Shown here: positions 4,091 through 57,225 of the stretch, piece by piece
How the letters are laid out: every line of letters begins with the position of its first letter
How positions within the stretch are numbered: position 1 is the stretch's first letter
Origin: Pristiophorus japonicus
Lineage: Eukaryota
Length of the DNA stretch: 64,000 nucleotides
Assembly (NCBI RefSeq): GCF_044704955.1
Contig: NC_091997.1
Location: forward strand, 34,596,001 to 34,660,000
Direction of reading: 5' to 3'
The notes under the pieces: generated by a model
What the model was told of the DNA's origin: nothing
Seen by the model: the letters and a program-made list of their open reading frames with translations, nothing else
Database searches by the model: none
Position numbers and translations under genes: made by a program

Positions 4091-4154
4091 CTCCCCCTCC
4101 CCTTTTCCCTGCCCCTACACTTGATTAAAACCTGTTACATCTCTAACCTTTTCC

Positions 4155-4191
4155 GTTTCTGACGAAGGGTCATCAACCTGAAACGTGAACT
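4155..4191 (+). ncRNA. Degenerate minimal hammerhead ribozyme motif in Penelope pLTR
   Basis: CTGACGA (4159-4165), helix II GGGTC-atc-AACCT, GAAA, CGTG, AACT. The putative cleavage-site base is G, so it is probably inactive. Confidence 0.6.
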
Positions 4192-4771: not shown

Positions 4772-5020
4772 TGTCATGTATGTAACCACAATGTAACACC
4801 ACTGTATTACTGTATACACTCAACCTAGATGCACACCTTGAACACAAGGGGGGAAACTTGTGGGAGACACTCCTTACCTGATCACACAGGTATAAAAAGG
4901 GAGGTCCCACGCAGGGTCATTGTCTTTGGAGTCCTGTGAATAAAGAGTTAAGGTCACAGAGTGACCTTGTCCCCAGAATGTGCCTCGTGTGGTTTCATAC
5001 TGTAGAGTAAGGACTTTATA
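4772..5020 (+). repeat. 5' LTR (249 bp)
   Basis: TGTCATG...TTTATA (terminal CA mutated to TA); contains TATAAAA and AATAAA; about 10 differences from the 3' LTR by eye. Confidence 0.95.
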
Positions 5021-5021
5021 T

Positions 5022-5031
5022 TGGCGACGAG
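5022..5031 (+). promoter_or_regulatory. Primer binding site (tRNA-Ser type)
   Basis: TGGCGACGAG 1 nt after the 5' LTR, complementary to the ...CUCGUCGCCA 3' end of tRNA-Ser(GCU). Confidence 0.75.
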
Positions 5032-5056
5032 AAACGGGAACTCACGACCCACGAGA

Positions 5057-8000
5057 ATGGTCACTGGTAGCACAGAGGAACGGTACTGTGTTGGGGAGGA
5101 CTGGGATGATTTTGTCGAGAGGCTTCAGCAAAGCTTTGTTATGAAAGAATGGCTGGGGGATGCAGCGGCCGACAGGCAAAGGGCTCATCTCTTGACCAGC
5201 TGCGGACCAAAGACTTACGCGCTCATGAAGGACTTACTAGCTCCCGAAAAGCCGGCGGACAAAATCTTGGAAGAACTTCGCAAATTGATCGGGGAGCACC
5301 TCAAACCGGCGAGTAGCATACATATGGCCCGACACAGATTCTACACCCACCAACGTCGTGAAGGACAGAGCATACCGGACTTCGTAGTGGACCTCCTGCA
5401 TTTGGCCAGCCTCTGTAAGTTCACAGACGCCTGCAAGGGGGAGATGCTAAGGGACTTTTTTGTCAAGGGCATCGGTCATGCGAGAATTTTCCGCAAATTA
5501 ATTGAAACCAAGGATTTGACCTTGGAAGCGGCGGCGTTGATAGCTCAAACATTCATGGCGGGGGAGGAGGAGACGAAAATAATATACGTGCGCAATTCTG
5601 CCTTTAACGCGGCGATGGATCAGGGAGTCAACAAGATCTATGCGACTCAGAACCCCGCAGGCAGGCAGGGGCAGTCCGACACTCCACAGGCAGCAATAGA
5701 CCCCAGAGTAGGACTTCAACAGAGACAATGACAGGCTGAACGGACATTCACACCATCACAGTGGACAATGCTGGGATGGGGCCATTGACACCCACTAATA
5801 GGGTATTTAAGACCAGTCAAAGGAACAGTCAGCGCGGAATGCCTGGCCATAGTCCCTTTGTTCCCAACAATGGAAACTTTAACTCATGCTGGAGGTGTGG
5901 GGGAAAACACTCAGCTAGATCTTGCAGATTTCAACAGTTTGTCTGCAGGAACTGCAATCTCAGTGGCCACTTAGCTCGAATGTGCATGACGTCTGCAACC
6001 AGACTAATATATGAGGCAGATGGACCAGAAGAGAGTTCTTTGAGGCAGGATGACTTTTGGGGCAAATCGATGGACACCGAGGTTCAGCGGGTCCATGTGG
6101 CGAATATTTACAGTTCATACACCAAAACGCCACCAATGATGATGGTTTTATTAAACGGTATCCCAGTACGCATGGAGCTGGACATTGGGGCCAGCCAGTC
6201 ACTCATGGGTGTTCAGCAATTTGAGAAGCTATGGCCACTTAAAGCCAGTAGACCCAAATTAGCACGTATTGAGACACAATTACGGACTTACACAAAATAA
6301 ATCATTCCGGTGCTAGGCAGTGCAATGTTGGCAGTCACACACAATGGGTTAGTGAATCGGCTGCCGCTCTGGATTGTCCCGGACAATGGTCCCGCACTGT
6401 TGGGGAGGAGCTGGTTAGCCGAGATGAACTGGAAATGTGGGGATGTTCACGCAATGTCATCTGTGGAGCGAAGTTCGTGCTGACAAGTCCTACAACAATT
6501 CGATTCACTATTCCAACCTGGCATCGGGACTTTCAAAGGCACTAAAGTAGTGATACACATCACCCCGGACGCCAGGCCAGTGCACCACAAAGCCAGAGCG
6601 GTGCCATATGTGATGCGGGAAAAGATCGAGAGCGAATTGGATCGACGGCTGAGAGAGGGCATCATCTCGCCTGTTGAATTCAGTGACTGGGCGAGCCCCA
6701 TCGTTCCCATCCTAAAAGCGGATGGCTCTGTCAGGATCTGTGGCGACCTCAATTGGGTGTCCCCACAAGATCAATACTTGCTCCTGAGAGCGTAGGACCT
6801 CTTCGCCACGCTGGCAGGCGGCAAGCTGTTCACCAAGTTGGACCTCACTTCAGCCTATATGACCCAGGAACTGGCCGACGAATCTAAACTACTGACCACC
6901 ATCACCACGCACAAGGGACTGTTCGTTTATAACAGGTGCCCGTTTGGCATTCAATCAGCGGCCGCGATTTTTCAACGAAACATGGAAAGCCTGCTTAAAT
7001 CCATTCCTGGAACGATTGTATTCCAAGACGACATCCTTATCACGGGTCGAGACACCGAGGAACACCTCCACAACCTGGAGGAGGTGCTACGCCGACTGGA
7101 CCGGGTAGGCCTGCGACTCAAGAAGTCTAAATGTGTGTTCTTAGCTCCTGAGGTTGAGTTTCTGGGCAGGAAGGTTACTGCAGATAGGATTCTGCTCACC
7201 GAATCCAAAACGGAGGCAATTCGATGTGCACCCAGGCCCTGCAACACATTGGAGTTGTGTTCATTCCTGAGACTGTTGAATGATTTCGGGAACTTTCTGC
7301 TGAACTTGAGCACGTTGTTGGAGCCGCTACACATGCTCCTGCGTAAGGGTTGCGATTGGTTTTGGGGGGACTGTCAGGAACGGGTTTTTGATCGGGCGTG
7401 AAACCTACTTTGTTCAAACAAGTTGTTGACCCTGTACGACCCCTGTAAAAAATTGGTTCTGACATGTGATGCATCGTCCTATGGGGTTGGGTGCGTGTTG
7501 CAGCAGGGCAATGCTGAGGGTCAACTACAAACTGTGGCTTATGCCTCCAGGTCACTTTTTCAAGCAAAATGGGGATATGGGATCGTCGAGAAGGAACGCT
7601 TGCATGTGTCTATGGTGTAAAAAAAAATGCATCAGTACCTCTTTGGTAGGAAGTTTGAATTAGAGATGGACCACAAGCCATTAACATCCCTGTTGTCAGA
7701 CAGCAAGGCTATCAATGCCAACACATCAACTTGCATACAGCGATGGGCTCTCACGCTGGCTGCTTATGACTACTCCATCTGGCACCGGCCCGGCACTGAA
7801 AATTGCGCTGACGCGCTCATCAGGCTTCCACTGGCCACCACTGAGGGGGCAGTGGAGCAAAGCGCCAAGCTGGTCATGGCTGTTGATGCCTTTGACAGCG
7901 CAGGCTCCCCCATCACAGCCCGCCAGATCAAAATCTGGACAAGCAGAGGTCCCCTCCTATCCCTGATTAAGAAATGTGTCCTGACTGGGGATTGGGTGCC

Positions 8001-9205
8001 CGCACACGGAGCATGCCCTGAGCAGGTCAAACCGTTCCACAGACGGGATGGATGAGCTCTCCATGCAAGCCGACTATCTAAATGGGGCAGCCATATAGTT
8101 ATGCTCCAGAAGGGCAGGGAGGCATTCATCAGGGAACTCCACAGCGAGCACCCAGGCATTGTGCTGATGAAAGCCATTGCCCGGTCACATGTTTGATGGC
8201 CTGGAATTGATTCAGACCTGGAACACTGTGTTCGCAGGTGCACGACGTGTGCCCAGCTGGGTAATGCCCCCAGGGAGGTCCCGCTCAGCCCGTGGCCCTG
8301 GCCCACCAGGCCATGGTCACGCATTCATGTTGACTACACGGGCCCGTTCATGGGTAAGATGTTCCTTATTGTGGTAGACACGTACTCAAAATGGATCGAG
8401 TGCATAATTCTGAATTCATGCACGTCATCCACCACCGTGGAAAGCCTACGTGCGATCTTTGCAACCCATGGCTTGCCGGACATCCTGGTTAGTGATAATG
8501 GCTCATGATTCACAAGCTACGAGAGTTTATGTCGGGCAATGGCATCAACCATGTCAGGACTGCGCCGTTCAAGCGGAACGTGCAGTCCAAATCATTTAGC
8601 AAGGTATGCTCAGGATTCAAGGACCCTCCCTACAATGCCGCCTATCGCGTCTCCTGCTGGCCTATAGATCCCGACCGCACTCGCTCACGGGGGTCCCACT
8701 CACAGAGCTACTAATGAAAAAGACACTCAAAACTCGGTTGTCCCTCATTCACCCAGTCCTGACCGACATAGTTGAGGGCAAGCGCAAGTCACAAAACGAG
8801 TACCATGACCGTAATTCGAGGGGGAGATGTATAGAAATAAATGAACCTGTATTCGTCCTCAATCACGCCATGGGGCCCAAATGGCTTGAGGGCACTGTAA
8901 TTGACAAAGAGGGGAATAGGGTCATCGTGGTAAAACTCAACAATGGTCAGATATGCCATAAGCATCTGGACCAAGTAAAAAAAAGGTTCAGCATGGACAC
9001 GGAGGAACCTGAAGATGACCATGAGATGGAGCTCACACCACCGCCAGTGAACGAGCAACAAGAGCAATCAGAAGAATGCACAGTCCCTGCGGTCAACCCG
9101 GACAGGCCGGAATCACCACAGGTGACAGACACTCACGTCAGTGTCCAACAACCAGAACCCCAACTGCAGCGCTCCACGAGGGAGCGTAGACCACTAAACC
9201 TATGA
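5057..9205 (+). pseudogene. Disrupted gag-pol of the Gypsy element
   Basis: Gag (EDWDDFVERL), two zinc knuckles (CWRCGGKH..C; CRNCNLSGHLARMC), protease ELDIGAS, RT DLTSAY...FQDDILI, RNase H TCDASSYGVG and integrase remnants. Many stops and frameshifts. Confidence 0.9.
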
Positions 9206-10842: not shown

Positions 10843-11890
10843 GGGTTCAAGACCCACTCCGGAGAACTGAGCACAAAAGGCTAGGCTCCCAGCGCAGTAT
10901 TGAGGGAGTGCCGCATTGTCGGAGGGGCAGTACTGAGGGAGCGCCGCACTGTCGGAGGGGCAGTACTGAGGGAGTGCCGCACTGTCGGAGGGGCAGTACT
11001 GAGGGAGTGCCGCACTGTCGGAGGGGCAGTACTGAGGGACGCCGCACTGTCGGAGGGGCATTACTGAGGGACGCTGCACTGTCGGAGGGACATTACTGAG
11101 GGACGCTGCACTGTTGGAGGGGCAGTACTGAGGGACGCCGCACTGTCAGAGTGGCAGTACTGAGGGACGCCGCACTGTCGGAGGGGCATTACTGAGGGAC
11201 GCTGCACTGTCGGAGGGACATTACTGAGGGACGCTGCACTGTTGGAGGGGCAGTACTGAGGGAGTGCCGCACTGTCAGAGTGGCAGTACTGAGGGACGCC
11301 GCACTGTCGGAGGAGCAGTACTGAGGGACGGCGCACTGTCGGAGGGGCAGTACTGAGGGAGTGCCGCACTGTCGGAGGGGCAGTACTGAGGGAGTGTGGC
11401 ACTGTCGAAGGGGCAGTACTGAGGGAGCACCGCACTGTCGGAGGGGCAGTACTGAGGGAGTGTGGCACTGTCGAAGGGGCAGTACTGAGGGACGCCGCAC
11501 TGTCGGAGGGGCAGTACTGAGGGACGGCGCACTGTCAGAGGGGCAGTACTGAAGGACGCCGCACTGTTGGAGGGGCAGTACTGAGGGAGTGCCGCACTGT
11601 CAGAGTGGCAGTACTGAGGGACGCCGCACTGTCGGAGGAGCAGTACTGAAGGACGCCGCACTGTCGGAGGGGCAGTACTGAGGGACGCCGCACTGTTGGA
11701 GGGGCAGTACTGAGGGAGTGCCGCACTGTCGAAGGGGCAGTACTGAAGGACGCCGCACTGTCGGAGGGGCAGTACTGAGGGACGGCGCACTGTCGGAGGT
11801 GCCTACTTTCGGATGAGACGTTAAATCAAACCCTACCTGCCCTCTCAGAGTAGATGTAAAAGATCCCACGGCCACTATTTCAAGGAAGAG
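10843..11890 (+). mobile_element. Deu-domain SINE with internal array of ~28 units of a 32/33-bp repeat
   Basis: GGTTCAAG box B, tandem GAGGGA(GT/C)GCCGCACTGTCGGAGGGGCAGTACT, then TTTCGGATGAGACGTTAAA. Confidence 0.85.
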
Positions 11891-18055: not shown

Positions 18056-18221
18056 TCACGGTGATAGTCTCTTATACACCCAATCACCTTCAGCCTTGTG
18101 AATCATGGAAGGTTCTCGATCTTGCCCCTCCTGCAAACGCTGGAACAGGATTCGGTCGTGCAGACGGTTGGTCTGTCCTTGCCAGAACTCAATAGTGTTG
18201 GGCTCCAGGAGGTAACCGCCC
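18056..18221 (-). CDS. PNPO: Pyridoxine/pyridoxamine 5'-phosphate oxidase, coding exon 7 (last)
   Basis: ttttgaag|G GGC GGT TAC...: (W)[26 protein letters not shown]...WVYKRLSP*, containing the PNPO signature EFWQGxxxRLHDR. Confidence 0.96.
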
Positions 18222-19118
18222 CTTCAAAACAACAGCATACGTAGAATTACATCGCGTGTACAGCCCAGAAACAGGCCATTCGGCCCCCACGGGTCCGTGC
18301 CGGGGTTTATGCTCCACACCAGCCCCCTTCCACCCCTCTCCATCTCACCCTATCACCATATCCCTCTATTCCTTTCTCCCTCGTGTGTTTATCTAGCCTC
18401 CCCTTAAATACATCTCTGTTATTCATCTCAACCCCTCCCTGAGGCAGCAAGTTCCACATTCATAGAAGAATAGAATCATAGAAATTTACAGCACGGAAGG
18501 AGGCCATTCGGCCCATCGTGTCCGCGCCGGCCGACAAAGAGCCATCCAGCCTAATCCTACTTTCCAGTTCTTGGTCCGTAGCCCTGCAGGTTACAGCACT
18601 TCAAGTGCACATCCAAATACTTTTTAAATGTGGTGAGGGTTTCTGCCTCTACCACCCTTTCAGGCAGTGAGTTCCAGACCCCCACCACCCTCTGTGTGAA
18701 AAAAACTCCTCTCTGACCACTCTCTAGGTAAAGACGTTTCTCCTGAATTCTTGATTGGATTTATTAGTGACGTCCATGTCTAAATGCACTGGCGTATGCG
18801 AAAAAATTCTGCTCGAACGTTAGAGGTCAAAGTTCAGGCTCATGACCCCTCCCTATCTCTGTAACATGGGACCAGACTGGGTAAGGACGGCAGATTTCCT
18901 TCCCTAGAGGGACATTGGTCAACCAGTTGGGCTTTTATGACACCCCAACAGCTTCATGGTCACTTTTACTGGCTTATAGTTCCAGATTTATATTAGCTGA
19001 ATTCTCAGACTGCCGTGGTCATGTTCTCTAGGTTTACCAGTCCAGTAATATAATCACTACACTGACCGTGCCCCCAGAAGGGAAGGGCTTGCTCGGTCAG
19101 CTCTCAGTCATCACTCAC

Positions 19119-19189
19119 CAGTACTCAGGCATCGGTACCTCCCTCTCTTTGTACAGCTCCTCTAGTTGGGCGTTCTTCTTCCTTAGAAA
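19119..19189 (-). CDS. PNPO: PNPO coding exon 6 (71 bp)
   Basis: ccag|FLRKKNAQLEELYKEREVPMPEYW|gtgagt; phases match the neighbouring exons. Confidence 0.95.
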
Positions 19190-19289
19190 CTGGGAAGAGG
19201 ACAGCAATAAGTGGATGTCACACTGGGGGAACCGTAAAGCTTGGGCCAGACGCCGTCCGGAGTAACCGTGTCCAGTTCTGAGCCCCACC

Positions 19290-19765
19290 CCTCAGGGAGG
19301 ATATATTCACCAGAATGGTACTGGGGCTGAAAGGGTTAAATTCTGAAAGCAGATTACACAGAGTAGTTCCTCGAGTGTAGAAGATTAAGAGGGCGATCTA
19401 ATTGAAGTGTTTAAAATGATTAAAGAATTCGATAGGGTAGAGAGAGAAACTATTCCCTCTGATGGGGAGAGTCCAGAACAAGGGGGCATCACCTTAAAAT
19501 TAGAGCCAGGCCATTCAGGGTGATGTCAGGAAGCGTTTCTTCACACAAAGGGCAGTGGGAATCTGAAACTCTCCCCCCAAAAAAGTTGTTGAGGCTCGGG
19601 GGGTCAATTGAAAATTGCAAATCTGAGATTGATAGATTTTTGTTGGGCGAGGGTATTAAGGGTCACGGAACCAAGGCGGGTAGATGGAGTTAAGGTACAG
19701 ATCAGCCGTGATCTGATTGAATGGCGGAACAGGCTCGAAGAGCCGAATGGCCTCCTCCTGTTCCG
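19290..19765 (+). mobile_element. CR1 LINE 3' fragment
   Basis: GATCTAATTGAAGTGTTTAAAAT...CCGAATGGCCTCCTCCTGTTCC. Confidence 0.75.
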
Positions 19766-21123
19766 ATCTTCACTTGCTGCCTTGTTGTGGTGAGAGGATG
19801 GGGGAACGCTCCGCAGATTTAGTTTGAAAGATTCCCCTGTGTCTTGGACATGGTGTGCCCAGCAATGTCGAACCACGCGAGGCATCACGACTGCCCCTGA
19901 GCCCGTTCTTACCCCATGTCACTCATGCACTTTCCCGGGGGAGGGCTGGGGTTGAACTCAACCAGGAATACTGGCTAACTTTTCCTGCTCCACACTCAGG
20001 TGCTGAGGCCAATTGTAGCGCCCCCTGCTGCTGCTCAGCTAACACTACAGACCGGGGACCTTCCTCGTCAAGGCTCGTTATGACACTGGGTGGGGCATTT
20101 ACCAACCGAGTCATCATGGTTGGGGGGGGGAGGGGGGAGGTGAATAAGGTGGGGACACACTAATATAATTGGCCTATACACAGTAAATCACATGAAAATC
20201 AAACAGCCCCATCAAAACCACAAATCACTGCCCAACCCTCCCTCAGGGAAATTATTTAATAACTAGTTAAGCTATCATCAGCTACACGACAAGAACACGA
20301 TACAGAGACACGCAAGGGGTGGGGGAATTGATCAGGGTTGCTGCTTCTGATTGCTGTCCAGTGACTCTTGATGCAGAGCACATGTGTGCGTGCATGACTG
20401 TGTGTGTGTGTGTGTGAGAGCTGGCGAGCGTGTTACAGCGTGAGTCCGTGTGCACGTGAGTGGAAGAGCATAATTACGTGCAAGTGTGTGTGAGTGTGTG
20501 CATGTGTGATGGCAGGAGAGGCCAGGTCAGCTTTGGTTGTGATGCACCCTGCAGTGGGATAGCCCGATGACAATCACTGTCTTGGCTTCTACAGGAAAGC
20601 CGGTCCGAGGGGGAGGGTCTGCGGGGGGTGGGGGGTGGCATCTGTCAGCTCCAGGGGAAGAGAGGGAAAAACAGAGACTTTTTTGGGGAAATGACAATAA
20701 GTGACTGAATTTATAGAATACTCAGCTCGGTTATTCATTAAGCTCACATTCTTCCTGCACAGGGCCCTAGGCTGGTAAAATATAAGCCGTCTCCTTGGCA
20801 ACGGCACATTCCCACTCTTGCAAAAAGTGCAAGATGCGAGGGAGATGACGGGAAAGGTTTCTGCACAGTGACTGTGGCCACTGAGCTGGGAGCTCGGCAC
20901 GGGCTGGAGTGAAGAAATGATCCACAGGCCATGATCGGGCGGGTGGTGCGAGGGGCCGATGAGATGGGTGGGGGGGGGGACTCGATGGGTGACTGTGGAG
21001 CAACAGACCCGGGGTGAATGGTTGAGCTGTGAGGGTGCTGAAAATTCTGAGGTTTTGCTCCATTCCCTTTGGCAATCAGGAACCGTTTATACAAAACTTC
21101 AACCCAGGAGATGCAATGGGATT

Positions 21124-21262
21124 TGGGCTGTGGGAGGAGATTCAATGGGTGGGTGGGTGGAGTCAGTGATAGGGGAGTGTGTCCATGGGCTGTGGGAGGA
21201 GATTCAATGAGTGGGTGGGTGGAGTCAGTGATAGGGGAGAGTGTCCATGGGCTGTGGGAGGG
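21124..21262. repeat. 62-bp tandem duplication (~2.2 copies) in PNPO intron 5
   Basis: TGGGCTGTGGGAGGAGATTCAATG.GTGGGTGGGTGGAGTCAGTGATAGGGGAG.GTGTCCA repeated. Confidence 0.85.
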
Positions 21263-21346
21263 ATTGGTTGTATGGCCTTTACTAGCTCCATGCTTTCCTC
21301 TGTTACACCCACCGTAACCGAGGCCCATGCGGTTCTGTGCACACAC

Positions 21347-21475
21347 CTCTCTGTCCGGGATCACCGTGCTCTGACGGCTAATCGCGGCACCAATCTGGCT
21401 GCTCTTGGGCCGGGAATGGAAGTACTCCTCGGAATCCTTGTCTGGTAATCTTGCCACACGCCCTTCTATACGCAC
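21347..21475 (-). CDS. PNPO: PNPO coding exon 5 (129 bp)
   Basis: cttag|[43 protein letters not shown]|gtgtgt. Confidence 0.97.
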
Positions 21476-21569
21476 CTAAGGAGAGTGAGTATTCGTGGTC
21501 AGTCTCTCTGCCCAATTGACGTACCGGCAAGTGGAACAGGACCACAGAGGCAGCAACATGCTCAACATA

Positions 21570-22085
21570 TTATAAACAGGATACAGAGGCACTGGAGAGG
21601 GTGCAGAGAAGATTTACAAAGATGATACCAGGAATGCGAGGGTATACATATTAGGAAAGGGTGAACAGGCTAGGTCTCTTTCCCTTCAAAAGAGAAGGCT
21701 GAGGGATGACCTAATAGAGGTCTTTAAAATGCTGAAAGGTTTTGATAGAGTGGATACAGAGAGAATGTTTCCACTTGTGGGGAAGAGCAAAACTAGAGGC
21801 CATCAATATAAGATAGTCACCAAGCAATCCAATGGGGAATTCAGGAGAAACCTCTTTACCCAGAGAGTGGTGAGAATGTGGAACTTACTGCCACAGGGAG
21901 TGGTTGAGGCGAATAGTATCGATGGATTTAAGGAGAGGCTGGACAAGCATATGGGGGAGAAGGGAATAGAGGGTTATGCTGATAGAGTTAGATGAGGAAA
22001 GACGGGAGGAGGCTCGAGTGGAGCATAAATGTCGGCATGGACTGGTTGGGCCGAATGGCCTGTTTCTGTTCCGTATCCTGTGTAA
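21570..22085 (+). mobile_element. CR1 LINE 3' fragment
   Basis: ORF 21729-21995 TRGHQYKI...FTQRVVRMWN. Confidence 0.8.
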
Positions 22086-22503
22086 ATTAAAAAGAAAACA
22101 TCACACTGAGCATGCTCCGTGGGGTCCAGGATCCAGCTCGGGTGGGGGGAGCAGCGGATGGTTGACTGGATAGACATCAGGACCAGGATCCTTGGCTGAT
22201 TTTGTTCCCTGCTCTAACACAGTGGGGCGGTTGTAGCGCCTCCTACTGGTGTGAGCAGCTAGGGTGTCAGCATTGACTCGGTGGGCAGCACTCTCGCCTT
22301 TGTGTCAGAAGGTCGTGGGTTCAAGCCCCACTCCAGTACTTAGGTATATAATTGGTTCCGATGTGTTTTGGGGCGCCTTGAGGAAATGAAAGGCATTATA
22401 TCAATGCACGTTCATTCTGTCAGACACAATTAGTGAGAATTAAATGCGGGAGTGAAAGAAAGGTACATTTAAAAAATGAATAAATATGTAAATGAGAACG
22501 TAC

Positions 22504-22557
22504 TTGCCTATTAAGGGCCTCCCAGTAAAAGACGATTGCTGCAACTGGATTGGTTTC
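22504..22557 (-). CDS. PNPO: PNPO coding exon 4 (54 bp)
   Basis: ttctccag|ETNPVAAIVFYWEALNRQ|gtacgt. Confidence 0.96.
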
Positions 22558-23067: not shown

Positions 23068-23167
23068 CAGCTCCTTGCCCTTCCTGCTCTCATAGTTTGT
23101 GTAGAATCTGAAGCCATCGGGCCCAAACCCTTTCAGAAGCAGCATTCGAGCAGACGGCCTTCCGTCC
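23068..23167 (-). CDS. PNPO: PNPO coding exon 3 (100 bp)
   Basis: ttttctag|(R)[33 protein letters not shown]|gtgagt, carrying the FMN-binding motifs. Confidence 0.97.
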
Positions 23168-24243: not shown

Positions 24244-24734
24244 ACATAACCTCTATAGCACAGAAATAGGGCATTCGGGCCAGCTGGTCTATGCCTGTGT
24301 TTATGCTCCATACAACCTCCTCCCACCTTGCCCCACTGCCGTATCCCCCTACTTCCCCTGAGAGAATCAAAGGATATGGGGATCACACGGGAAAGTGGGG
24401 TTGAGGTAAAGATCGGCCATGGTCTTATTGAATGGCGGAGCAGGCTCAAAGGGCCGAATGGCCCATTCCTGCTCCTAATTCATGTTCTAATGTCCTCTGT
24501 TAGTAATGGACCCCATTATTGCACAGGTTTGACATTTCTCTTTGACCCATATTTTAATGTTAACCTCAATGAATTTAACTAGCGGACAAGGAGCTTTCTC
24601 ATCAACACTGTAACACCGTGCCACTATACCGTCTTTCGGTAGGGTGGGGGACCCATGCACTTTCCAACGTTAATTCTACTTCAGGCCTTTTGGTGAATGT
24701 TTGTCGACACTGCCTTAGTTCCAGCGAGGAGATT

Positions 24735-26470
24735 GGCGCAAGAGGTTACCTGGCACGGGTGATTACCTGCCGCTCATGGTTACTTGGCGCTCGTGGTTAC
24801 CTGTCGCGGGTGGTTACCTGCCGCTCATGGTTACCTGGCGCGGGAGGTTACCTGGCGCGGGAGGTTACCTGGCGTGGGAGGTTACCTGGCACGGGAGGTT
24901 ACCTGGCGTGGGAGATTACCTGGCGTGGGAGGTTACCTGGTTCGGGAGATTACCTGGCTCAGGAGGTTACCTGACTCGGGAGGTTACCTGGTGCGGGAGG
25001 TTACCTGGCGTGGGAGGTTACCTGGTGCGGGAGGTTACCTGGTGTGGGAGATTACCTGGTGCGGGTGGTTACCTGGCTCAGAAGGTTACCTGAATCGGGA
25101 GGTTACCTGGTGCGGGAGGTTACCTGGCGTGGGAGGTTACCTGGTGCTGGAGGTTACCTGGTGCGGGAGGTTACCTGGTGCAAGAGGTTACCTGGTGTGG
25201 GAGGTTACCTGGTGTGGGAGGTTACCTGGTGCAAGAGGTTACCTGGTGTGGGAGGTTACCTGGCGTGGGAGGTTACCTGGTGCGGGAGGTTATCTGGTGC
25301 GGGAGGTTACCTGGCGTGGGAGGTTACCTGGTGTGGGAGGTTACCTGGTGCTGGAGGTTACCTGGTGTGGGAGGTTACCTGGTGCTGGAGGTTACCTGGC
25401 TCGGGAGGTTACCTGGTGCGGGTGGTTACCTGGCTCGGGAGGTTACCTGGTGCGGGAGGTTACCTGGTGCTGGAGGTTACCTGGTGTGGGAGGTTACCTG
25501 GTGCTGGAGGTTACCTGGTGCTGGAGGTTACCTGGTGCTGGAGGTTACCTGGTGCTGGAGGTTACCTGGTGTGGGAGGTTACCTGGTGCGGGAGGTTACC
25601 TGGTGTGGGAGGTTACCTGGTGCTGGAGGTTACCTGGTGTGGGAGGTTACCTGGTGTGGGAGGTTACCTGGTGCGGGAGGTTACCTGGTGCTGGAGGTTA
25701 CCTGGCTCGGGAGGTTACCTGACTCGGGAGGTTATCTGGTGTGGGAGGTTACCTGGTGCGGGAGGTTACCTGGTGCTGGAGGTTACCTGGCTCGGGAGGT
25801 TACCTGGTGCGGGTGGTTACCTGGCTCGGGAGGTTACCTGACTCGGGAGGTTACCTGGTGTGGGAGGTTACCTGGTGCGGGAGGTTACCTGGTGCTGGAG
25901 GTTACCTGACTCGGGAGGTTACCTGGTGCGAGAGGTTACCTGGTGTGGGAGGTTACCTGGTGCTGGAGGTTACCTGGCTCGGGAGGTTACCTGGTGCGGA
26001 TGGTTACCTGGCTCGGGAGGTTACCTGACTCGGGAGGTTACCTGGTGTGGGAGGTTACCTGGTGCGGGAGGTTACCTGGTGCTGGAGGTTACCTGGTGTG
26101 GGAGGTTACCTGGTGCTGGAGGTTACCTGGTGCGAGAGGTTACCTGGTGCTGGAGGTTACCTGGTTCTGGAAGTTATCTGGTGCTGGAGGTTACATAGAA
26201 ACATAGAAAATAGATGCAGGAGTAGGCCATTCAGCACTTCGAGCCTGCACCACCATTCAATAAGATCGTGTCTGATCATTCCCTCAGTACCCCTTTCCTG
26301 CTTTCTCTCCATACCCCTTGATCCCTTTAGCTGTGAGGGCCATATCTAACTCCCTCTTAAATATATCCAATAATATATGGCGCTCGTGGTTACTTGCCGC
26401 TTGTGGTTACCTGGCGCTTGTGGTTACCTGGTGCTTGTGGTTACCTGGCGCGGGAGGTTACCTGGTGCTG
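24735..26470 (-). repeat. 17-bp minisatellite (~90 units) derived from the PNPO exon2/intron2 junction, interrupted by a CR1 tail at ~26195-26370
   Basis: Plus-strand unit GGAGGTTACCTGGTGC(T/G), i.e. minus-strand AGCACCAG|GTAACCTCC, identical to the real donor at 26462/26461. Confidence 0.95.
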
Positions 26471-26586
26471 GTGGCGAGGCACATGGCATTAGCCTCCCGG
26501 ATAGACGGGCATGTCGTGGCCGCTTCGAACCAGTCAGCAAACTGCTTCATGGGGTCCAGAGAAACCAGCTGATTCTCTTCAAAAGC
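26462..26586 (-). CDS. PNPO: PNPO coding exon 2 (125 bp)
   Basis: ttgccag|[41 protein letters not shown](R)|gtaacc. Confidence 0.97.
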
Positions 26587-26927
26587 CTGGCAACAAAGAC
26601 AGAGAGGAATATAAACACACAGACACACCGAGGCAGCAGCAGGTGTACTTTGCAAAGGTTTATTTGGTGCGGGTTGTGGGTGACCTTGGTGAGGTTACTC
26701 TTACTGGCAGTCCCTGAGAAGGTGGCGATGGGGCAGCTCCTATCTCCGGGCGTACGCGCATGTACATACTTGCAAACTCTGCAGAGACAAGTCATTTATC
26801 ACTATTGCCATGTAATTATATAGATTTTTCGACAGCACCTCACAAACCCGCGACCTCTAGAAGGACAAGGGCAGCAGGTGCCTGGGAACACCACCACCTC
26901 CACGTTCCCCTCCAAGACTTTGATATC

Positions 26928-31351: not shown

Positions 31352-31543
31352 TTCCTGGTCGCATTTGTAGCTCTGCCTCATGGCGGCCACGTCGGCAGCA
31401 GGGCTGGAGCTGGAGCAGGAGGACATGCTGCAGGGTCTGCGACCTGAGCACGGTCTGTCCCCGCCGATCCACGGGTGCCCGGAACCTCTGATGAAACTGA
31501 CAGGGAAACTGATCCTTAGGGTGTCAGTTACACGCAACCACAT
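31352..31543 (-). CDS. PNPO: PNPO coding exon 1 (192 bp)
   Basis: GCCATG start; MWLRVTDT...DVAAMRQSYKCDQE|gtgagt resembles human MTCWLRGVT...DLGPMRKSYRGDRE. The joined CDS is 837 nt = 278 aa, open. Confidence 0.9.
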
Positions 31544-33714: not shown

Positions 33715-33940
33715 TTTTGATTGACAGCTAAGCGACCAATTAGAGGTGAGAAAGCATTCGCCTCTGCGCCAATGGGAGGTGGGCACCAAGTTCATTGACA
33801 AGAGCTTGAACCGCCGAGCTTCGGTCCTGATGATTGGCAGTTGTTGGAACCAATCAAAATGAAGATTGACAAACGGGCCACGCTCCCTTGCTTTGGTAGC
33901 CTGTGTCATTGCGGAGTGGGCGGGACTTCCTGCCTGGTGT
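33715..33940 (+). promoter_or_regulatory. CCAAT/TALE/GC-box promoter of the BEN-domain gene
   Basis: TGATTGACAG (33718-33727) + CCAAT (33736), CCAAT ~33769, TGATTGGCAG + CCAAT (33831-33854), GGGCGGG and ACTTCCT ~33918-33931, about 100 nt upstream of the ATG. Confidence 0.7.
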
Positions 33941-34027
33941 TGTGACAGCCAGTCTGGCTCTGGACTGGAGCTGGGGCTGGAAGTTGGACAGGACTCTGTG
34001 TCCAACCTGAGTCTGAGCTTAAGCTGC

Positions 34028-34302
34028 ATGGCTGACACTATGCTGACAGTCACTGAGCCCGTCTATACTGAGCTGGCAACACTGACAGAGGGACAGCAGC
34101 AGCAGCAGGGCTGTGGGGGAGAGGAGGAAGAGGATGATGATGAAGAGGAGGAGAAGAAGAAGGAGGAGGAGAAAGACTTCCCCAGGAGTGGAGAGGTCAG
34201 CAGGGAGCTCGGCTTCTCCAAACCCCCAGCCTGGTACCAGAACAGTGAGCGAGCTTTCACCTGCAGAACGCAGAGCTCTGGGTCTCAGCAAGATGCTCAC
34301 AG
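34028..34302 (+). CDS. BEN-domain protein, coding exon 1 (acidic, low complexity)
   Basis: ATG GCT..., MADTMLTVTEPVY...EEEEDDDEEEE...DAH, donor AG|gtaaga in phase 2 matching the next acceptor. The start could be the second ATG (34040). Confidence 0.7.
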
Positions 34303-34469
34303 GTAAGAGGAAAGACCAGCTGGGGTCACACCTGTCACTGGGTTTATAAACTGTAAATGAGGGAGAAGGTTTGATCAATGGCTAAATAATTTTGGAATCA
34401 GTGGATTCAGTTGTACAGAGCCTCGGTCAGACCCCATGCGCAGTAACTGCGTTCAGTCCTGGGCCCTGC

Positions 34470-35209: not shown

Positions 35210-35810
35210 TTGCTGTGGCTCAGTGGGCAGCACTCTCGCCTCTGAGTCAAAAGGTCGTGGGTTCAAGTCCCACTCCAGGGACTTGAGCACATATTCTATG
35301 CTGACACTCCCAGTGCAGTACTGAGGGAGTGCCGCACTGTCGGAGGGGCAATACTGAAGGAGCGCCGCACTGTCGGAGGGGCAGTACTGAGGGAGCGCCG
35401 CACTGTCGGAGGGGCAGTACTGAGGGAGCGCTGCACTGTCGGAGGGGCAGTACTGAGGGAGCGCTGCACTGTCGGAGGGGCAGCACTGAGGGAGTGCTGC
35501 ACTGTCGGAGGGGCAGTACTGAGGGAGAATCGCATTGTCGGAGGGGCAGTACTGAGGGAGTGCTGCACTGTCGGAGGGGCAGTACTGAGGGAGCATCGGA
35601 GGGGCTGTACTGAGGAAGCATTGGAGAGGCAGTACTGAGGGAGTGCCGCACTGTCAGAGGGACAGCACTGAGGGAGCGCCGCACTGTCGGAGAGACAGTA
35701 CTGAGGGAGCGCTGCACTGTCAGAGGGACAGTACTGAGGGAGCGCCGCACTGTCGGAGAGACAGTACTGAGGGAGCGCTGCACTGTCGGAGGGTCAGTAC
35801 TGAGGGAGCA
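35210..35810 (+). mobile_element. Deu SINE head with ~15-unit 33-bp array, 3' body missing
   Basis: GTGGCTCAGTGG...GGTTCAAGTCCC followed by the tandem array. Confidence 0.85.
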
Positions 35811-36324
35811 GCTACCCTTTACAATGAAGGGTGGGGGTGCTACTCGCTCCCATACCCCGCTTGACGTCCACCCAGTATTCCAAGCCAATCTCCACTCCCC
35901 ATGGGGGCCGGTCAGGAGTGGGGCTCAAACCCAATCCTTCTGATGGAGTCAGTGGTCGATCCAATACGGGGACAATATTTACGCCTGTTTCAGTTGGAGT
36001 AATGTATTAGGAGAGAAATTAGGAAACGCTTCTTCCCGCAAAAGGTGGTGGGAGTGTGGAACTCTCTCCCACAATGAGCAGCAGATGCCGGCTCAATTAA
36101 TCATTTTAAATCTGAGATCGATAGATTTTTGTTAGAATCGGGTATTCTTGGACATGGAGCCAAGGCGGGTGGATGGTGTTAGGATACAGATCGGCCGTGA
36201 TCTCATCGAATGCTCGAGGGGCTGGGTGGCCTGCTCATGTGTGTTTGCGGCTGAGTGGGTGAGTCCTGTCTCTGTGTTGGGCCCTGAGCTGCTGTCTAAG
36301 ACCCCCCTCCTTTACTGTGCTCAG

Positions 36325-36974
36325 GCAGGTGAACGGCCGCTCCGAGGACGCAGTGACCGGTCGCAGTTGGTCACCCTCCCGACCCACCGAGCATCGCAGG
36401 CCTGGGCCACAGCTGCAGGACACCGAGGAGGAGGACTACAAGCAGAGCAAGAAGCAGAGATGTTCGAGCTCCCTGCTGTCCGGCCATGGCTTCGACCCGG
36501 CCTCGGGCAGGAGGCCGCCACACCACGGAGACCCGTCCAGACCCAGCGCGCGGCGCCAACCCTCGCCCTTTCCCGTGGCGGCTTCGCCATGCCTGGCCCG
36601 CCTGGTGTCCCCGCAGCCCTGCTCGCCAGCCGGTATCCCGGCCAGGCCTCGTCGGAGGGACAGCTCCCCGGGTCCTCCTGCCTCTCCCGCGATGTCCGGC
36701 CTGCCTCCCGCCGTGGACAGCGGGCGCACCCTGAGGGTGATGGGACTGTACGCGGACCTGGTGCAGGAGCTCCAGGTTCAGCTGGCGGAGCTGCAGCGGC
36801 GAGGTCGGGTGGAGGCGGAGCTGGGCTCGGCGCGGGAGCGGCACATCGAGGCGCTGGAGGCGGAGAACCGGAGGCTGAAGGACCAGTTGCAGAAACTGGA
36901 GGAGGAGAACGACTTCCTGTCCAGCGGCAATGAGCGGGGCAACACCATGAGGGGTCTGCAAGCGGGAGCACTGG
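36325..36974 (+). CDS. BEN-domain protein, coding exon 2 (Pro/Ser/Arg-rich + coiled coil)
   Basis: gtgctcag|G CAG GTG...; GC-rich open frame ending LVQELQVQLAELQ...IEALEAENRRLKDQLQKLEEENDFL (heptads); donor G|gtaaat phase 1. Confidence 0.85.
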
Positions 36975-38169
36975 GTAAATTTTTTCACATTCTTAGACGC
37001 ATAGACATTCGAATTCTCGAATGAAACAGCACAGGAGAAGGCCACTCGGCCCATCGTGTCGACTCTGTGAAAGAGCGATCCAATTAGTCCCACTCCCCCT
37101 GCTCTGCTAATTTCTCCTTTTCAAGTATTTATCCAGGGCAGATGCAGCACGTGTTAAATACAGATTTAATCTGGTCTGCCTAACCTCAGAAGAGTGCCCC
37201 CTACAGGACGAGTTTAGTGGCATTCTGCCGTCCTGCTGCCTTTGCTTTGTGAGACTGGCAACTTAAAGCCAAATTCTGGGTAAGTTTGTGAAGTACATTC
37301 AGATCCAGCAACGAGACTGCCCCAAACTGCTATCTGGTAACCAGAACTGTACCATCCTGCACCAAACCCCACTCACACATCACCCCTGTGCTCGCTGACC
37401 TACACTGCCTCCCGTCTGGCGACGCCTTGATTTTAAACTTCTCATCTTTGTGTTCAAATCCCTTCATGGTCTTAACCCCTCCCTATCTCTGTAACCTCCT
37501 CCAGCCCTACAACCCTCCCAAGATCTCTGCGCTCCTCCAATTCTGGCCTCTTGTGCATCCCCGATTTTAATTGTTCCACCATTGGCGGCCGTGCCTGGGT
37601 CCTAAGCTCTGGAATTCCCTCATTAAAACTCTCTATCTACTTCTTTAAGGCCCTTCTTAAAACCCATCTCTAGGATCAAGCTGTTACTCGCCTTCTGTTC
37701 CTCCTTCTGTTAATCAGCCTGCATTTTTGACTGACTACACCTCCTGTTAATCATGCTGGGATGTTAAAGGCGCTATAGAGATGCAAGTTGCAACCGAGTG
37801 CTGTCTAACAGTGTCAGGGGTTTAATGGAAGGGTTCTGAGGTTGCAATGCTGCAGTACTGGACCTTTGCCAGCAGAGACCACTAGTGAGCTGGGTAGATT
37901 GTGCTTCCCCCCTGTGTCCAGGTGCAGTACTGCAGTGTTCACAACAGGTTCAATCACAGAGCTGTCATAGAAGGAGGCCATTCAGCCCATCGTGTCTGGG
38001 CCAGCTCTTTACTAGAGCAATCCAAAACTAATCCCACTGCGCTCTCCCCATAGTCCTGCATCTTCCTCTGCTTAAAAAAATTATCCAATTTCTTGTTTAT
38101 CAAATATCAAATAAAACTATTTGTATATAATATACATGCATTGCTTGCTATTTCTTTTTATTTATTTTA

Positions 38170-38988
38170 GGTCAGCAGTGGTTCAGTGAGCAGCACTCTT
38201 GCCTCTGAGTCCCATTCCAGAGATTTGAGCACAAAATCCAGTCTGACACTCCCACTGTCGGAGGGGTGGTAGTGCGGCGCTCCCTCAGTATCAGAGGGGC
38301 AGTACTGAGGGAGCGCTGCACTGTCGGAGGGGCAGTACTGAGGGAGCGCTGCACTGTCAGAGGGGCAGTACTGAGGGAGGGGCGGTACTGAGGGAGCGCT
38401 GCACTGTCGGAGGGGCAGTACTGAGGGAGCGCTGCACTATCAGAGGGGCAGTACTGAGGGAGCGCCACACTGTCGGAGGGGCAGTACTGAGGGAGCGCCG
38501 CACTGTCGGAGGGGCAGTACTGAGGGAGCGCCGCACTGTCGGAGGGGCAGTACTGAGGGAGCGCCGCACTATCAGAGGGGCAGTGCTGAGGGAGCGCAGT
38601 ACTGAGGGAGCGCCGCACTGTCTGAGGGGCAGTACTGGGGGAGCGTTGCACTGTTGGAGGTGCCGTCTTTTGGATGAGAAGTTAAACCGAGGCCCCGTCT
38701 GCCCTCCCAAGTGGATGTAAAAGATCACATGGCACTATTTTGAAGAAGAGCAGGGGAGTTCCCCCCCACCCCCCCAGTGTCCTGGCCGATATTTATTTCT
38801 CAATCAACTTCACTAAAAAAGAGATGATCTGATCATTATCACAATGCTGTTTGTGGGAGATTACTGTGCGTAAATTGAATGCTTCCCACATTACAACACT
38901 GACTACACTTCAAAAGGTACTTCATTGGCTGTAAAGCGCTTTGGGACGTCCGGAGGTTGTGAAAGATGTTATAGAAATGCAAGTCTTT
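38170..38988 (+). mobile_element. Deu SINE with ~11-unit 33-bp array
   Basis: Head, array, Deu body and tail ending about 25 nt before the exon-3 acceptor. Confidence 0.85.
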
Positions 38989-39694: not shown

Positions 39695-40662
39695 AAGAAA
39701 GAAAGACTTACATTTATACAGCACCTTTCACGACCCCCCGATGTCCCAAAGCACATTTCAGCCAATGAAGTACTTTTGGAGTATAGTCACTGCTGTAATG
39801 TAGGAAACGCGGCAGCCAATTTGCACACAGAAAGCTCCCACAAACAGCAATGTGATAATGATCAGATTATCTGTTTTAGTTATGTTGGTTGCGGGATAAA
39901 TATTGGCCAGGACACCGGGGATAACTCCCCTTCTCTTCTTCAAAATAGAGCCATAAGATCTTTTGCGTCCACCTGAGAGGGCAGACGGGGCCTCGGTTTA
40001 ACGTTCCATCCGAAAGACGACCCCTCCGACAGTGCGGCGCTCCCTCAGTACAGCCCCTCCGACAGTGCGGCGCTCCATCAGTACTGCCCCTCCGACCGTG
40101 CGGCACTCCCTCAGTACGGCCCCTCTGACAGTGTAGCGCTCCCTCAGTACTGCCCCTCTGACAGTGTAGCGCTCCCTCAGTACTGCCCCTCTGACAGTGT
40201 AGTGCTCCCTCAGTACTGCCCCTCCGACAGTGCTCGCTGACCTACATTGGCTCCTGGTCCGGCAACACCTCGATTTCAAAATTCTCATCCTTGTTTTCAA
40301 CTTCCTGCACGGCCTCACTCCTCCCTATCTCTATAACCTCCTCCAGCCCTACAACCCCCCCTGAGATCTCTGTGCTCCTCCAGTTCTGACCTCTTGAGCA
40401 TCCCGATTTTCATCGCTCCACCATCGATGGCCGTGCCTTCAGCTGCCTGGGCCCTAAGCTCTGGAATTCCCTCCCTAAACCTCTCTACCTCTGTTTAAGA
40501 CGCTCCTTAAAATTTACCTCTGACCAAACTTTTGGCCACCTGTCCTAATATCTCTCAAGCGGCTCGGTGTCAGATTGTGTCGGATTACGCTCCTGTGAAG
40601 CGCCTTGGGATGTTTTACTACATTGAAGGTGCTATATTAATGCACATCGTTGTTGTTGTTGT
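39695..40662. mobile_element. Minus-strand Deu SINE with ~6-unit array (39695-40232) fused to a plus-strand L2 3' fragment (40228-40662)
   Basis: Family motifs; the L2 (GTT)n tail abuts the exon-5 acceptor. Confidence 0.8.
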
Positions 40663-40669
40663 TAACCAG

Positions 40670-40916
40670 GCAAATGGGAGACCGAAGGCAGAGCTGATAC
40701 CTGGCTCAGGTGTGTACCTCACCAACCGGGAGGTGGACGAACTCTCGCAGGTCTCCCGAGATAAGCCCAAGCTGATGACTCGGAAGCTCCTGGGGTATTT
40801 CTTTTCGCATCAGACATTGGCGCGGTCGTCAGCCCGGGGTGAGCGCATCGCCCACAACAAGACCACCTTGGAGAAGCCCATCTGCTTACCTACTGCTGTC
40901 ACAGACACCATCAAAG
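40670..40916 (+). CDS. BEN-domain protein, coding exon 5 (BEN domain, N-terminal part)
   Basis: ELIPGSGVYLT...KPKLMTRKLLGYFFSHQTLARSSARG...LPTAVTDTIK parallels the BEN domain of NACC1/2 (ELVTGTNVYIT...[22 protein letters not shown]); donor G|gtgagg. Confidence 0.9.
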
Positions 40917-41320
40917 GTGAGGGGGGTTGGGGGGTGAGGGTTGGGGGTGAGGGGTGGGGTTGGGGGGGTGAGGGTTGGTGGGGTGAGGGGTGGGGATGAG
41001 AGTTAGGGGGGGTGAGGGTTGGGGTTGGGGGTTGGGTTTGGGGTGAGGGTTGAGGATGAGGGGGGGTGGGGGTTGTGGTTGAGGGTGAGAATTGGGGTGG
41101 GGGTGAGGGTTGGGGTGGGGGGTGAGGGTTGCGATTGGATGGTGAGTGTTGGGGGGATGAGGATTGGGGGTGGGGGTTGGGGGGTGAGGGGTTGGAGGTG
41201 AGGGTTGGGCATGAGAGGTGAGGGGTTGGGGTGAGGGGTGGGGGTTGGTGGGGTGAGGGGTTGGGGTGTGAGGGATTGGAGGTGTGTGGGTGGGGGTTGG
41301 GGTTGGGGTGGGGTTGAGGA
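40917..41320 (+). repeat. G-rich degenerate (GGGTGA/GGGTTG)n tract starting at the exon-5 donor
   Basis: About 17 GTGAG motifs among G-runs; strong G-quadruplex potential. Confidence 0.85.
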
Positions 41321-43599: not shown

Positions 43600-44305
43600 G
43601 GCCTTTCATCACCTCAGGGCCTCCCAAAGCGCTTTACAGCCAATGAAGTACTTTTGGAGTGTAGTCACTGTTGTAATGTGGGAAACGCGGCAGCCAATTT
43701 GCACACAGCAAGCTCCCACAAACAACAATGTGATAATGACCAGATAATCTGTTTTAGTGATGTTGATTAAGGGATAAATATTGGCCCAGGACACTGGGGA
43801 TAACTCCCCTGCTCTTCTTCAAAATAGTGCCATTGGATCTTTTATGTCCACCTGAGAGGGCAGACGGGGCCTCGGTTTAACCTCTCATCCGACAGTGCAG
43901 CAGTCTGACAGTGCAGCACTCCCTCAGTACTGCCCCTCCAATAGTGCGGCGTTCCCTCAGTATGCCCCTCCGACAGTGCGTTGTTCCCTCAGTACTGCCC
44001 CTCCGACAGTGCGGCACTCCCTCAGTACTGCCCCTCCGACAGTGCGGCGTTCCCTCAGTACTGCCCCTCTGACAGTGCGGCGCTCCCTCAGTACTGCTCC
44101 TCCGACAGTGCAGCGCTCCCTCAGTACTGCCCCTCCGAGCGTGCGGCGCTCCCTCAGTACTGCCCCTCCGACCATGCGGCGCTCCCTCAGCACTGCACTG
44201 GGAGTGTCAGCCTAGATTTTTGTGCTCAAGTCTCAGGAGTGGGACTTAAACCCACGATCTTCTGACTCAGAGGCGAGGGTGCTGCCCACTGAGCCACAGC
44301 TGACA
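43600..44305 (-). mobile_element. Deu SINE with ~9-unit array
   Basis: Family motifs. Confidence 0.85.
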
Positions 44306-44649: not shown

Positions 44650-45432
44650 TTCAAAGTCCCACTCGAGAGACTTGAGTGCATAATCTAGACCGACACTCCC
44701 AGTGCAGTACGGAAGGAGTGCTGCATTGTCGGAGGGGCAGTACTGAGGGGGTGTTGTACTGTCGGAGGGGCGGTACTGAAGGGGTGCTGCACTGTTGGAG
44801 GGGCAGTACTGAGGGAGCGCCGCACTGTTGGAGGGGCAGTACTGAGGGAGTGCCGCACTGTCGGAGGGGCAGTACTGAGGGAGCGCTGCACTGTCGGAGG
44901 GGCAGTACTGAGGGAGCGCCACACTGTCGGAGGGGCAGTACTGAGGGAGCGCCGCACTGTCGGAGGGGCAGTACTGAGGGAGCGCCGCACTGTCGGAGGG
45001 GCAGTACTGAGGGAGCGCCGCACTGTCGGAGGGGCAGTACTGAGGGAGCGCCGCACTGTCGGAGGGGCAGTACTGAGGGAGCGCCGCACTGTCGGAGGGG
45101 CAGTACTGAGGGAGTGCCGCACTGTCGGAGGGGCAGTACTGAGAGAGTGCCGCACTGTCGGAGGGGCAGTACTGAGGGAGCGCCGCACTGTCGGAGGGGC
45201 AGTACTGAGGGTGTGCCGCACTGTTGGAGGGGCAGTACTGAGGGAGTGCCGCACTGTTGGAGGGGCAGTACTGAGGGAGTGTGCACTGTCGAAGGGACAA
45301 TACTGAGGGAGTGCTGCACTGTTGGAGGGGCAATACTGAGGGAGCACTGCACTGTTGGAGGGGCAGTACTGAGGGTGTGCCGCACTGTTGGAGAGGCAGT
45401 ACTGAGGGAGCGCCGCACTGTCGGAGGGGCAG
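44650..45432 (+). mobile_element. Deu SINE 5' part with ~22-unit 33-bp array
   Basis: TTCAAAGTCCCACTC head remnant followed by a homogeneous array. Confidence 0.85.
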
Positions 45433-45439
45433 TCTTTCA

Positions 45440-55790: not shown

Positions 55791-55841
55791 TCGCTAAGGT
55801 TTCTAAGTTCTCCCCCTTTCTTTCCCTGACTGTTGCTGCAG

Positions 55842-57165: not shown

Positions 57166-57225
57166 GTGAGAAGCCATTTGCCAAAAAGCTTCATTCCATC
57201 AAATTTTATGCAGCGAGTTGTTGTA

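What the first reader, a model, noticed from the sequence alone, without database searches (positions are those of the whole stretch)
24735..26470. About 90 tandem copies of PNPO's own 5' splice site behind exon 2
Seen: the 17-bp unit is the exon2/intron2 junction itself (minus strand AGCACCAG|GTAACCTCC). The authentic donor is the first unit, and the next ~1.7 kb of intron offers about 90 more sites, most with the identical CAG|GTAACC sequence. The reading frame across the true donor is ACC AGG TAA, so use of any downstream copy gives an immediate stop (106 aa) and a likely NMD substrate. Edge units are more diverged than the interior, and a CR1 tail interrupts the array, suggesting an old seed with a recent expansion. 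Known: PNPO makes pyridoxal 5'-phosphate, and U1 binding affects both splice choice and premature polyadenylation. Inference: a decoy-donor array or U1 sponge whose length could tune productive PNPO splicing, or at minimum a natural test of how exon definition picks one donor among many identical ones.
Basis: partly seen in the sequence, partly recalled or inferred. Interest (0 to 1): 0.78.

Follow-up and report, generated by a model that had tools for sequence, protein, structure and literature searches.

The report
Splice-donor minisatellite in shark PNPO intron
A 17-base piece covering the end of an exon and its splice signal is repeated 91 times in a shark's vitamin-B6 enzyme gene, but the assembled transcripts use the first signal and a related species has a single copy, so it is likely a harmless example of a repeat type already known from human and lancelet genes.

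Summary
PNPO intron 2 opens with 91 units of 17 bp; unit 1 is the exon 2/intron 2 junction, and 80 of the 90 later units repeat CAG|GTAACC. Read-through stops at once. The array occurs at one locus in the 5.9-Gb genome. The regulatory reading is not supported. Two RNA-like runs each give one contig joining exon 2 to exon 3 at the first donor; rare isoforms would be missed. A second species has one unit followed directly by the 3' flank, so the array is lineage-specific, likely grown by slippage between short repeats 17 bp apart. A LINE tail after unit 5 pushes 86 copies at least 392 nt from the acceptor. This is the F7-intron-7/6-16/CBS/'mirage' class, in which the donor-choice question was already tested (PMC1557585). 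The scan's notes report it in at least five other genomes, including a longer array in elephant shark (unchecked). One loose end: the U1-pairing core is less mutated than the rest of the unit (p 0.006 raw, 0.05-0.16 after mutation-type corrections). Interest is low.

The parts
31352..31543 (-). PNPO exon 1, coding part from first in-frame ATG (second ATG at 31426)
   Evidence: last 129 and 58 nt joined to exon 2 in X5 and X6 contigs
26462..26586 (-). PNPO exon 2 (125 nt); last 8 nt are the first half of unit 1
26453..26469 (-). Unit 1 = authentic donor AGCACCAG|GTAACCTCC, in-frame TAA at 26460-26458
26378..26452 (-). Units 2-5, the only pseudo-donors close to the exon (would give exons of 142, 159, 176, 193 nt)
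26195..26377 (-). 183-nt 3' end of a high-copy LINE-type repeat (CR1 label recalled), same strand as the gene, inserted into the array
   Evidence: junction seen in DNA run X1
24734..26194 (-). 86 further units; homogenised interior, diverged last ~10 units; use as donors would need exons of 392-1837 nt
24704..24733 (-). Unique 3' flank; in organism B this follows directly on the first 16 nt of the intron
   Evidence: loose end against, 25 of 30 letters alike (compared by eye)
23068..23167 (-). PNPO exon 3, acceptor of intron 2
18056..22557 (-). PNPO exons 4-7 (22557-22504, 21475-21347, 19189-19119, 18221-18056)
   Evidence: all four joints seen in X5 and X6

Best explanation
The array is a single-locus, lineage-restricted minisatellite built from the PNPO exon 2/intron 2 junction, likely neutral, which the spliceosome mostly ignores by taking the first donor. 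Shown: sequence anatomy; one locus; one unit in organism B; exon 2 joined to exon 3 at the first donor in the assembled transcripts. Inferred origin: replication slippage between two near-identical hexamers 17 bp apart (GCACCA in the exon, GCGCCA in the intron) duplicated the donor; further slippage or unequal exchange expanded and homogenised the interior while the edges dropped out; a LINE tail then cut off the first five units. Inferred splicing: exon definition or 5'-to-3' first-come selection, as tested in F7, favours the first donor; only four copies lie within 193 nt of the acceptor, and the other 86 would need exons of 392 nt or more. Predicted: any leak to a later copy carries the in-frame TAA ahead of four more junctions and would be removed by NMD, so copies cannot rescue a mutated first donor. 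Predicted, weak: each unit holds a near-palindrome (AGGTAACCT), so copies can pair with each other and hide their donors.
For: One contig per run in X5 and X6 (depth 38 and 32) runs exon 1|exon 2|exon 3 with the joint at 26462/23167 (loose ends and record positions; for exons 3-7). Organism B contig (X8, 713 nt, depth 4.9) matches exon 2 at 118 of 125 nt, shows no difference at 26446-26487, then goes straight into the flank; its periodic part is 24 nt, under the 31-letter word size, so graph collapse of an array does not explain it. 39 of 39 genome hits in this array. The two seed hexamers account for the two commonest polymorphic columns, -8 and -5. Edge exclusion from homogenisation as described for lancelet mirages (PMC3087553 passages). 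F7 minigenes: only the most upstream functional donor is used (PMC1557585). Tandem repeats with a donor 7-mer are common here and not enriched: 11,642 overlapping matches against 58,998 for the backwards control. Intron 2 has no AATAAA and one ATTAAA, so little for U1 to suppress.
Against: The RNA evidence is contigs from two samples of one study, kind not on record; contigs drop rare forms and NMD would deplete them. In human 6-16 and CBS two proximal pseudo-sites are used (PMC1557585 Introduction), so leak to units 2-4, whose U1 pairing is as strong as the first (-8.0 kcal/mol each), is plausible. The -3..+6 core carries 3 of 16 derived alleles on 9 of 17 sites (p 0.006; G/C sites only p 0.046; without CpG changes p 0.11, U1-paired G/C sites p 0.06-0.16). 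One outgroup run only: loss by recombination between first and last unit in B is possible.
Confidence: 0.76

Rival explanations
1. Leaky but unselected: units 2-4 (or a pseudo-exon opened by the U-rich LINE tail and closed by an interior donor) are used in a measurable minority of transcripts, which NMD destroys; PNPO output falls slightly, as a cost rather than a device.
For: Proximal pseudo-sites are used in 6-16 and CBS. Units 2-4 pair with U1 as well as the first donor and are predicted more accessible than interior copies in most settings. The LINE tail ends in a pyrimidine run like the gene's real acceptors (0.73 against 0.64-0.86) before an AG at 26185-26184.
Against: The only assembled form in X5 and X6 uses the first donor. 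F7 pseudo-sites stay silent even when strengthened.
Confidence: 0.15
2. Selected regulatory element: the copies load U1 snRNP (sponge, decoy or enhancer of exon 2 definition) and array length tunes productive PNPO splicing.
For: CAG|GTAA is nearly invariant: 6.5% of minor-allele mass lies in -3..+6, the lowest 9-column window of the unit; in five unrelated 32-33-bp arrays of the window the lowest comparable window held 7-37% (small numbers of units). 88 of 91 units keep GT.
Against: Absent in organism B. No intact unit gains +5G or +6T. The core effect weakens to p 0.05-0.16 once seed states, base class and CpG are allowed for, and the core overlaps the near-palindrome, so hairpin-biased amplification would give the same pattern. 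Predicted donor-donor hairpins (-8.0 kcal/mol per two units) match the U1 duplex energy and would work against U1 loading.
Confidence: 0.06
3. Recursive-splicing ladder: every unit is AG|GT preceded by a C-rich run, so the intron start could be removed in steps that regenerate the donor.
For: CAG|GT geometry in 85 of 91 units.
Against: Interior units have little U before the AG (0.09-0.18 against 0.23-0.64 at real acceptors); intron 2 is only 3294 nt.
Confidence: 0.02
4. Assembly artefact.
For: The only DNA run laid may be the assembly's source; exact copy number unchecked.
Against: 33 distinct unit types and 885 single-copy 31-mers among 1122 distinct; run X1 holds both edges, the LINE junction and high-depth interior words.
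Confidence: 0.01

Closest known systems
Human F7 intron 7 37-bp VNTR (Borensztajn et al. 2006, PMC1557585; read: abstract, Introduction, Discussion whole, Results passages)
   Same: First monomer spans the exon-intron boundary, identical donors are reiterated in the intron, the mature transcript uses the first.
   Different: 5-9 copies of 37 bp against 91 of 17 bp; here every later donor gives the same in-frame stop; a LINE tail splits the array; the unit is a near-palindrome, whereas no masking structure was found in F7.
Human 6-16 (25 pseudo-sites), CBS intron 13 (15-20), LMNB2 (100 bp x 10-15), PDGF intron 4 (81 bp x 16-18), as summarised in the Introduction of PMC1557585 (primary papers not seen; CBS notation c.1444_1467+7(16_21) seen in passages of PMC2630376)
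   Same: Junction-spanning donor minisatellites.
   Different: Copy number here is 3.5 times that of 6-16.
Amphioxus 'mirages' in Adh3 and globin genes (PMC3087553, passages)
   Same: Tandem duplications of exon-intron boundaries with AG/GT signals, concerted evolution inside, edges excluded, regular splicing not disturbed.
   Different: Units of 10-160 bp; length and somatic instability shown there, untested here.
Decoy donors and regulated unproductive splicing (recalled, no paper read)
   Same: Extra U1-binding sites and a premature stop if misused.
   Different: Those elements are typically conserved and show a regulated isoform (recalled); neither was found here.

Membership tests
Junction-spanning donor minisatellite (F7 IVS7 / mirage type) | First monomer spans the exon-intron boundary | tested here: met
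   Unit 1 = last 8 nt of exon 2 + first 9 nt of intron 2
Junction-spanning donor minisatellite (F7 IVS7 / mirage type) | Head-to-tail units reiterate the donor sequence in the intron | tested here: met
   80 of 90 later units have the same 9-mer
Junction-spanning donor minisatellite (F7 IVS7 / mirage type) | Locus-specific origin, not a dispersed satellite | tested here: met
   39 of 39 genome hits in this array; single unit in organism B
Junction-spanning donor minisatellite (F7 IVS7 / mirage type) | Main transcript uses the most upstream donor | tested here: met
   2 of 2 RNA-like runs covering the exon, one study, contigs only
Junction-spanning donor minisatellite (F7 IVS7 / mirage type) | Homogenised interior, diverged edges | tested here: met
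Junction-spanning donor minisatellite (F7 IVS7 / mirage type) | Length polymorphism among individuals | not testable with these tools
   All DNA runs listed for organism A come from one sample
6-16/CBS subtype (proximal pseudo-sites used) | Minor use of second and third donor | tested here: inconclusive
   Contigs drop rare forms
Decoy donor / regulated unproductive splicing element | Conserved in related species (criterion recalled) | tested here: not met
   Absent in organism B, 1 run laid of 4 listed
Decoy donor / regulated unproductive splicing element | NMD-sensitive isoform or regulated retention | not testable with these tools
   No raw reads and no NMD-blocked runs offered
Decoy donor / regulated unproductive splicing element | Constraint on U1-pairing positions | tested here: inconclusive
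   p 0.006 raw, 0.046-0.16 corrected
Recursive splice sites | Strong U-rich acceptor directly before the donor, in a very long intron (criteria recalled) | tested here: not met
   U fraction 0.09-0.18 at interior units; intron 3.3 kb

The most novel reading that the evidence does not exclude
The array is a self-masking U1 landing pad: 85 intact donors whose core is kept by selection, switching between donor-donor hairpins and U1 binding at equal predicted energy, so that repeat length sets how much PNPO pre-mRNA is spliced productively or sent to NMD, a heritable dial on vitamin-B6 activation in one shark lineage.
Probability: 0.06. Interest if true: 0.65.

Novelty: new member of a known kind. 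Interest (0 to 1): 0.2.

Why it matters
As read here it matters modestly. It is a large, clean example of a known class, with two useful extras: the pre-expansion state is visible in a relative, which shows the seed (two hexamers 17 bp apart around the donor), and a LINE insertion splits near from far copies, which makes a neat substrate for asking how distance, hairpins and copy number affect donor choice beyond the 5-9 copies of F7. If length did tune PNPO output through U1 loading it would be a splice-site VNTR acting as a dose control on an essential cofactor enzyme, which I did not find described in the searches.

Tried and rejected
No run was on record as RNA ('no RNA holder listed'); X5 and X6 were judged RNA because their contigs skip all introns at CT..AC. 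No X5 or X6 contig was laid on units 2-5 at 80% likeness, while interior-type contigs of DNA run X1 were; a part without cover is not evidence of absence. The loose-end and joint tables were cut (1834 and 232 rows not shown), so the acceptor side is not exhaustively checked. Dispersed-satellite origin rejected. Predicted donor accessibility does not separate real from pseudo-donors: all are low, 0.000-0.079 at the five other real donors and 0.001-0.017 at the authentic one. Hairpin-driven DNA instability: DNA folding of 12-unit blocks is not unusual against 200 unit-permuted controls (15-42% as stable); only sense RNA is near the tail (4-5%). Long higher-order repeats: none over 4 units in exact unit code. 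U1 variant matching GTAACC: 6 of 42 scored U1 loci inspected, all canonical. Ancient duplicate of exon 2 upstream: not supported (398 of 1000 shuffles as good). The first exon model was off by one base and was corrected. No note on relatives of this stretch. A search for PNPO intron 2 splicing in sharks listed nothing relevant in 10 of 83 rows seen. PMC2812944 and PMC10078293 (passages) gave only general context. Primary papers on 6-16, CBS splicing, LMNB2, PDGF and Adh3 and all supplements were not seen.

Full report
Setting. The window lies on contig C21 of a 5.9-Gb genome; earlier scan notes call it a sawshark (not checked). PNPO is on the minus strand with seven coding exons, all with AG/GT ends, and an open frame of 278 codons. 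Exons 3, 5 and 7 match PNPOx_N or PNP_phzG_C; exon 2 alone gave no match. Exon 2 has one match in the genome.

The observation. Intron 2 (26461-23168, 3294 nt) begins with a 17-bp array in two blocks. In register there are 91 units, the first being AGCACCAG|GTAACCTCC across the junction. Of the 91, 88 keep GT and 81 read CAG|GTAACC; 15 later units equal the first over all 17 nt; 33 distinct types occur among the 90 complete units. The frame across the donor is AG|G TAA, so any later donor gives a stop after 106 aa counted from the first ATG. That is a property of any phase-2 intron starting GTAA and was there before the array (see organism B). A dimer pattern hits 39 times in the genome, all here, control 0. 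A 183-nt piece of a high-copy repeat, 94-97% like its 39 best scored relatives and similar to the ends of LINE-like elements in the window, sits after unit 5. DNA run X1 carries both edges and this junction at about 9x and interior words at 25-55x; it may be the assembly's source, so it shows the array is in the reads but not its exact length.

Origin. A contig of organism B (X8) aligns over intron 1, exon 2 (118 of 125 nt) and the first 16 nt of intron 2, with no difference at 26446-26487, and then continues with sequence matching the window's 3' flank of the array at 25 of 30 letters. So 1712 nt are present in A and absent in B. The single-unit state has GCACCA at the exon end and GCGCCA 17 bp later; slippage between them yields the unit, and their differences account for the polymorphic columns -8 and -5. 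Both edges share variant types that the interior lacks, the pattern reported for lancelet mirages. The LINE piece therefore entered an existing array and isolated five old units. Gain in A is the simpler reading; with one outgroup run, pop-out loss in B is not excluded.

Splicing. Runs X5 and X6 (two samples, one study, kind not on record) each yield one contig, 1228 and 1168 nt at depth 38 and 32, that skips introns 3-6 at canonical ends and joins exon 1 to exon 2 and exon 2 directly to exon 3 at the first donor. This fixes the main form only; contigs drop rare variants and NMD would deplete them. Units 2-4 pair with this genome's U1 5' end as well as the first donor does (-8.0 kcal/mol; 6 of 6 U1 loci read are canonical), so strength does not explain the choice; position can. 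Only four copies give exons under 200 nt; the rest need 392-1837 nt. In F7, identical downstream donors are functional but unused, use falls with distance, and strengthening them does not shift splicing short of perfect consensus (PMC1557585).

Is there a sign of function? For: the -3..+6 core holds 8 of 41 spanning-tree changes (p 1e-5, inflated by recombination between seed states) and 3 of 16 derived alleles once seed states are removed (p 0.006); on G/C sites only p 0.046, without CpG changes 0.11, and for the truly U1-paired G/C sites 0.06-0.16. Against: no conservation in B; no improvement toward consensus in intact units; three units have lost GT; the core coincides with a near-palindrome AGGTAACCT that lets units pair with each other (sense RNA folds more stably than 95-96% of 200 permuted arrays, DNA does not), which offers a non-splicing reason for core retention and would hinder U1 loading. 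Intron 2 has no AATAAA. Donor-like tandem repeats are plentiful and not enriched in this genome (11,642 against 58,998 overlapping matches; not checked for exon junctions). I treat the core effect as unexplained but weak.

Comparison. The defining features of junction-spanning donor minisatellites are met, except length polymorphism, which could not be tested. Precedents: F7, 6-16, CBS, LMNB2, PDGF and amphioxus mirages. The scan's own notes list the same kind in five other genomes, including about 300 copies in elephant-shark CCDC171 and a ray METTL3 case (AI notes, unchecked, not used as support). No paper on this PNPO array turned up, which cover only the open library.

Verdict. Real, well formed, new member of a known kind; most likely neutral and ignored by the spliceosome (0.76), leaky without purpose (0.15), selected U1 device (0.06). 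Interest 0.2.

Noticed in passing
window 26659-26713 (minus strand, intron 1, 72-126 nt before exon 2): A degenerate look-alike of about 2.5 array units (score 34; 0 of 764 window controls, 2-8 of 1000 shuffles reach it), single copy in the genome. Organism B shows no difference over 26667-26713 although the intron nearer the exon differs at many places. It holds several donor-like GT motifs and an AATAAA at 26664. Unexplained.
   Followed up: partly
window 26184-26210 (minus strand): The LINE tail forms a U-rich run before an AG, a possible cryptic acceptor right in front of 85 donors; a pseudo-exon here would carry stops. Not seen in the two RNA-like contigs.
   Followed up: partly
window 24763-25909 (plus strand): The antisense strand of the array is open in all three frames for 271-319 codons, a mechanical result of a stop-free unit; no evidence of a gene.
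   Followed up: no
window 10894-11799, 35315-35809, 38253-38660, 40021-40233, 43907-44196, 44704-45433, 52764-53450, 55193-55518: Many 32-33-bp tandem arrays of one family, apparently expanded inside a SINE-like repeat (SINE label recalled).
   Followed up: no
window 55830-57308 (plus strand): Long Gln/Ser-rich open frame that looks like the large exon of an Sp-family factor, probably SP2, PNPO's neighbour in other vertebrates (identification recalled).
   Followed up: no
window 33863-34306, 36263-37024, 40511-40999 (plus strand): Three exon-like open frames: acidic low-complexity, coiled-coil-like, and BEN-domain-like (labels recalled), possibly one gene divergent from PNPO.
   Followed up: no
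window 949-4162 and 5006-9205: Broken retroelement-like frames, Penelope-like and Gypsy-like by recalled motifs.
   Followed up: no
G000:C1:14724989-14727733 (L022-L047) and C1:35184925-35187010: Multi-kilobase 27-bp minisatellites carrying AGGTAAG in most units, related at two loci; not checked for an adjoining exon.
   Followed up: no
G000 contigs C2321, C1093, C3745, C18, C25 and others: At least 42 U1 snRNA matches over the Rfam cut-off, many in clusters with inverted pairs 3-7 kb apart.
   Followed up: no
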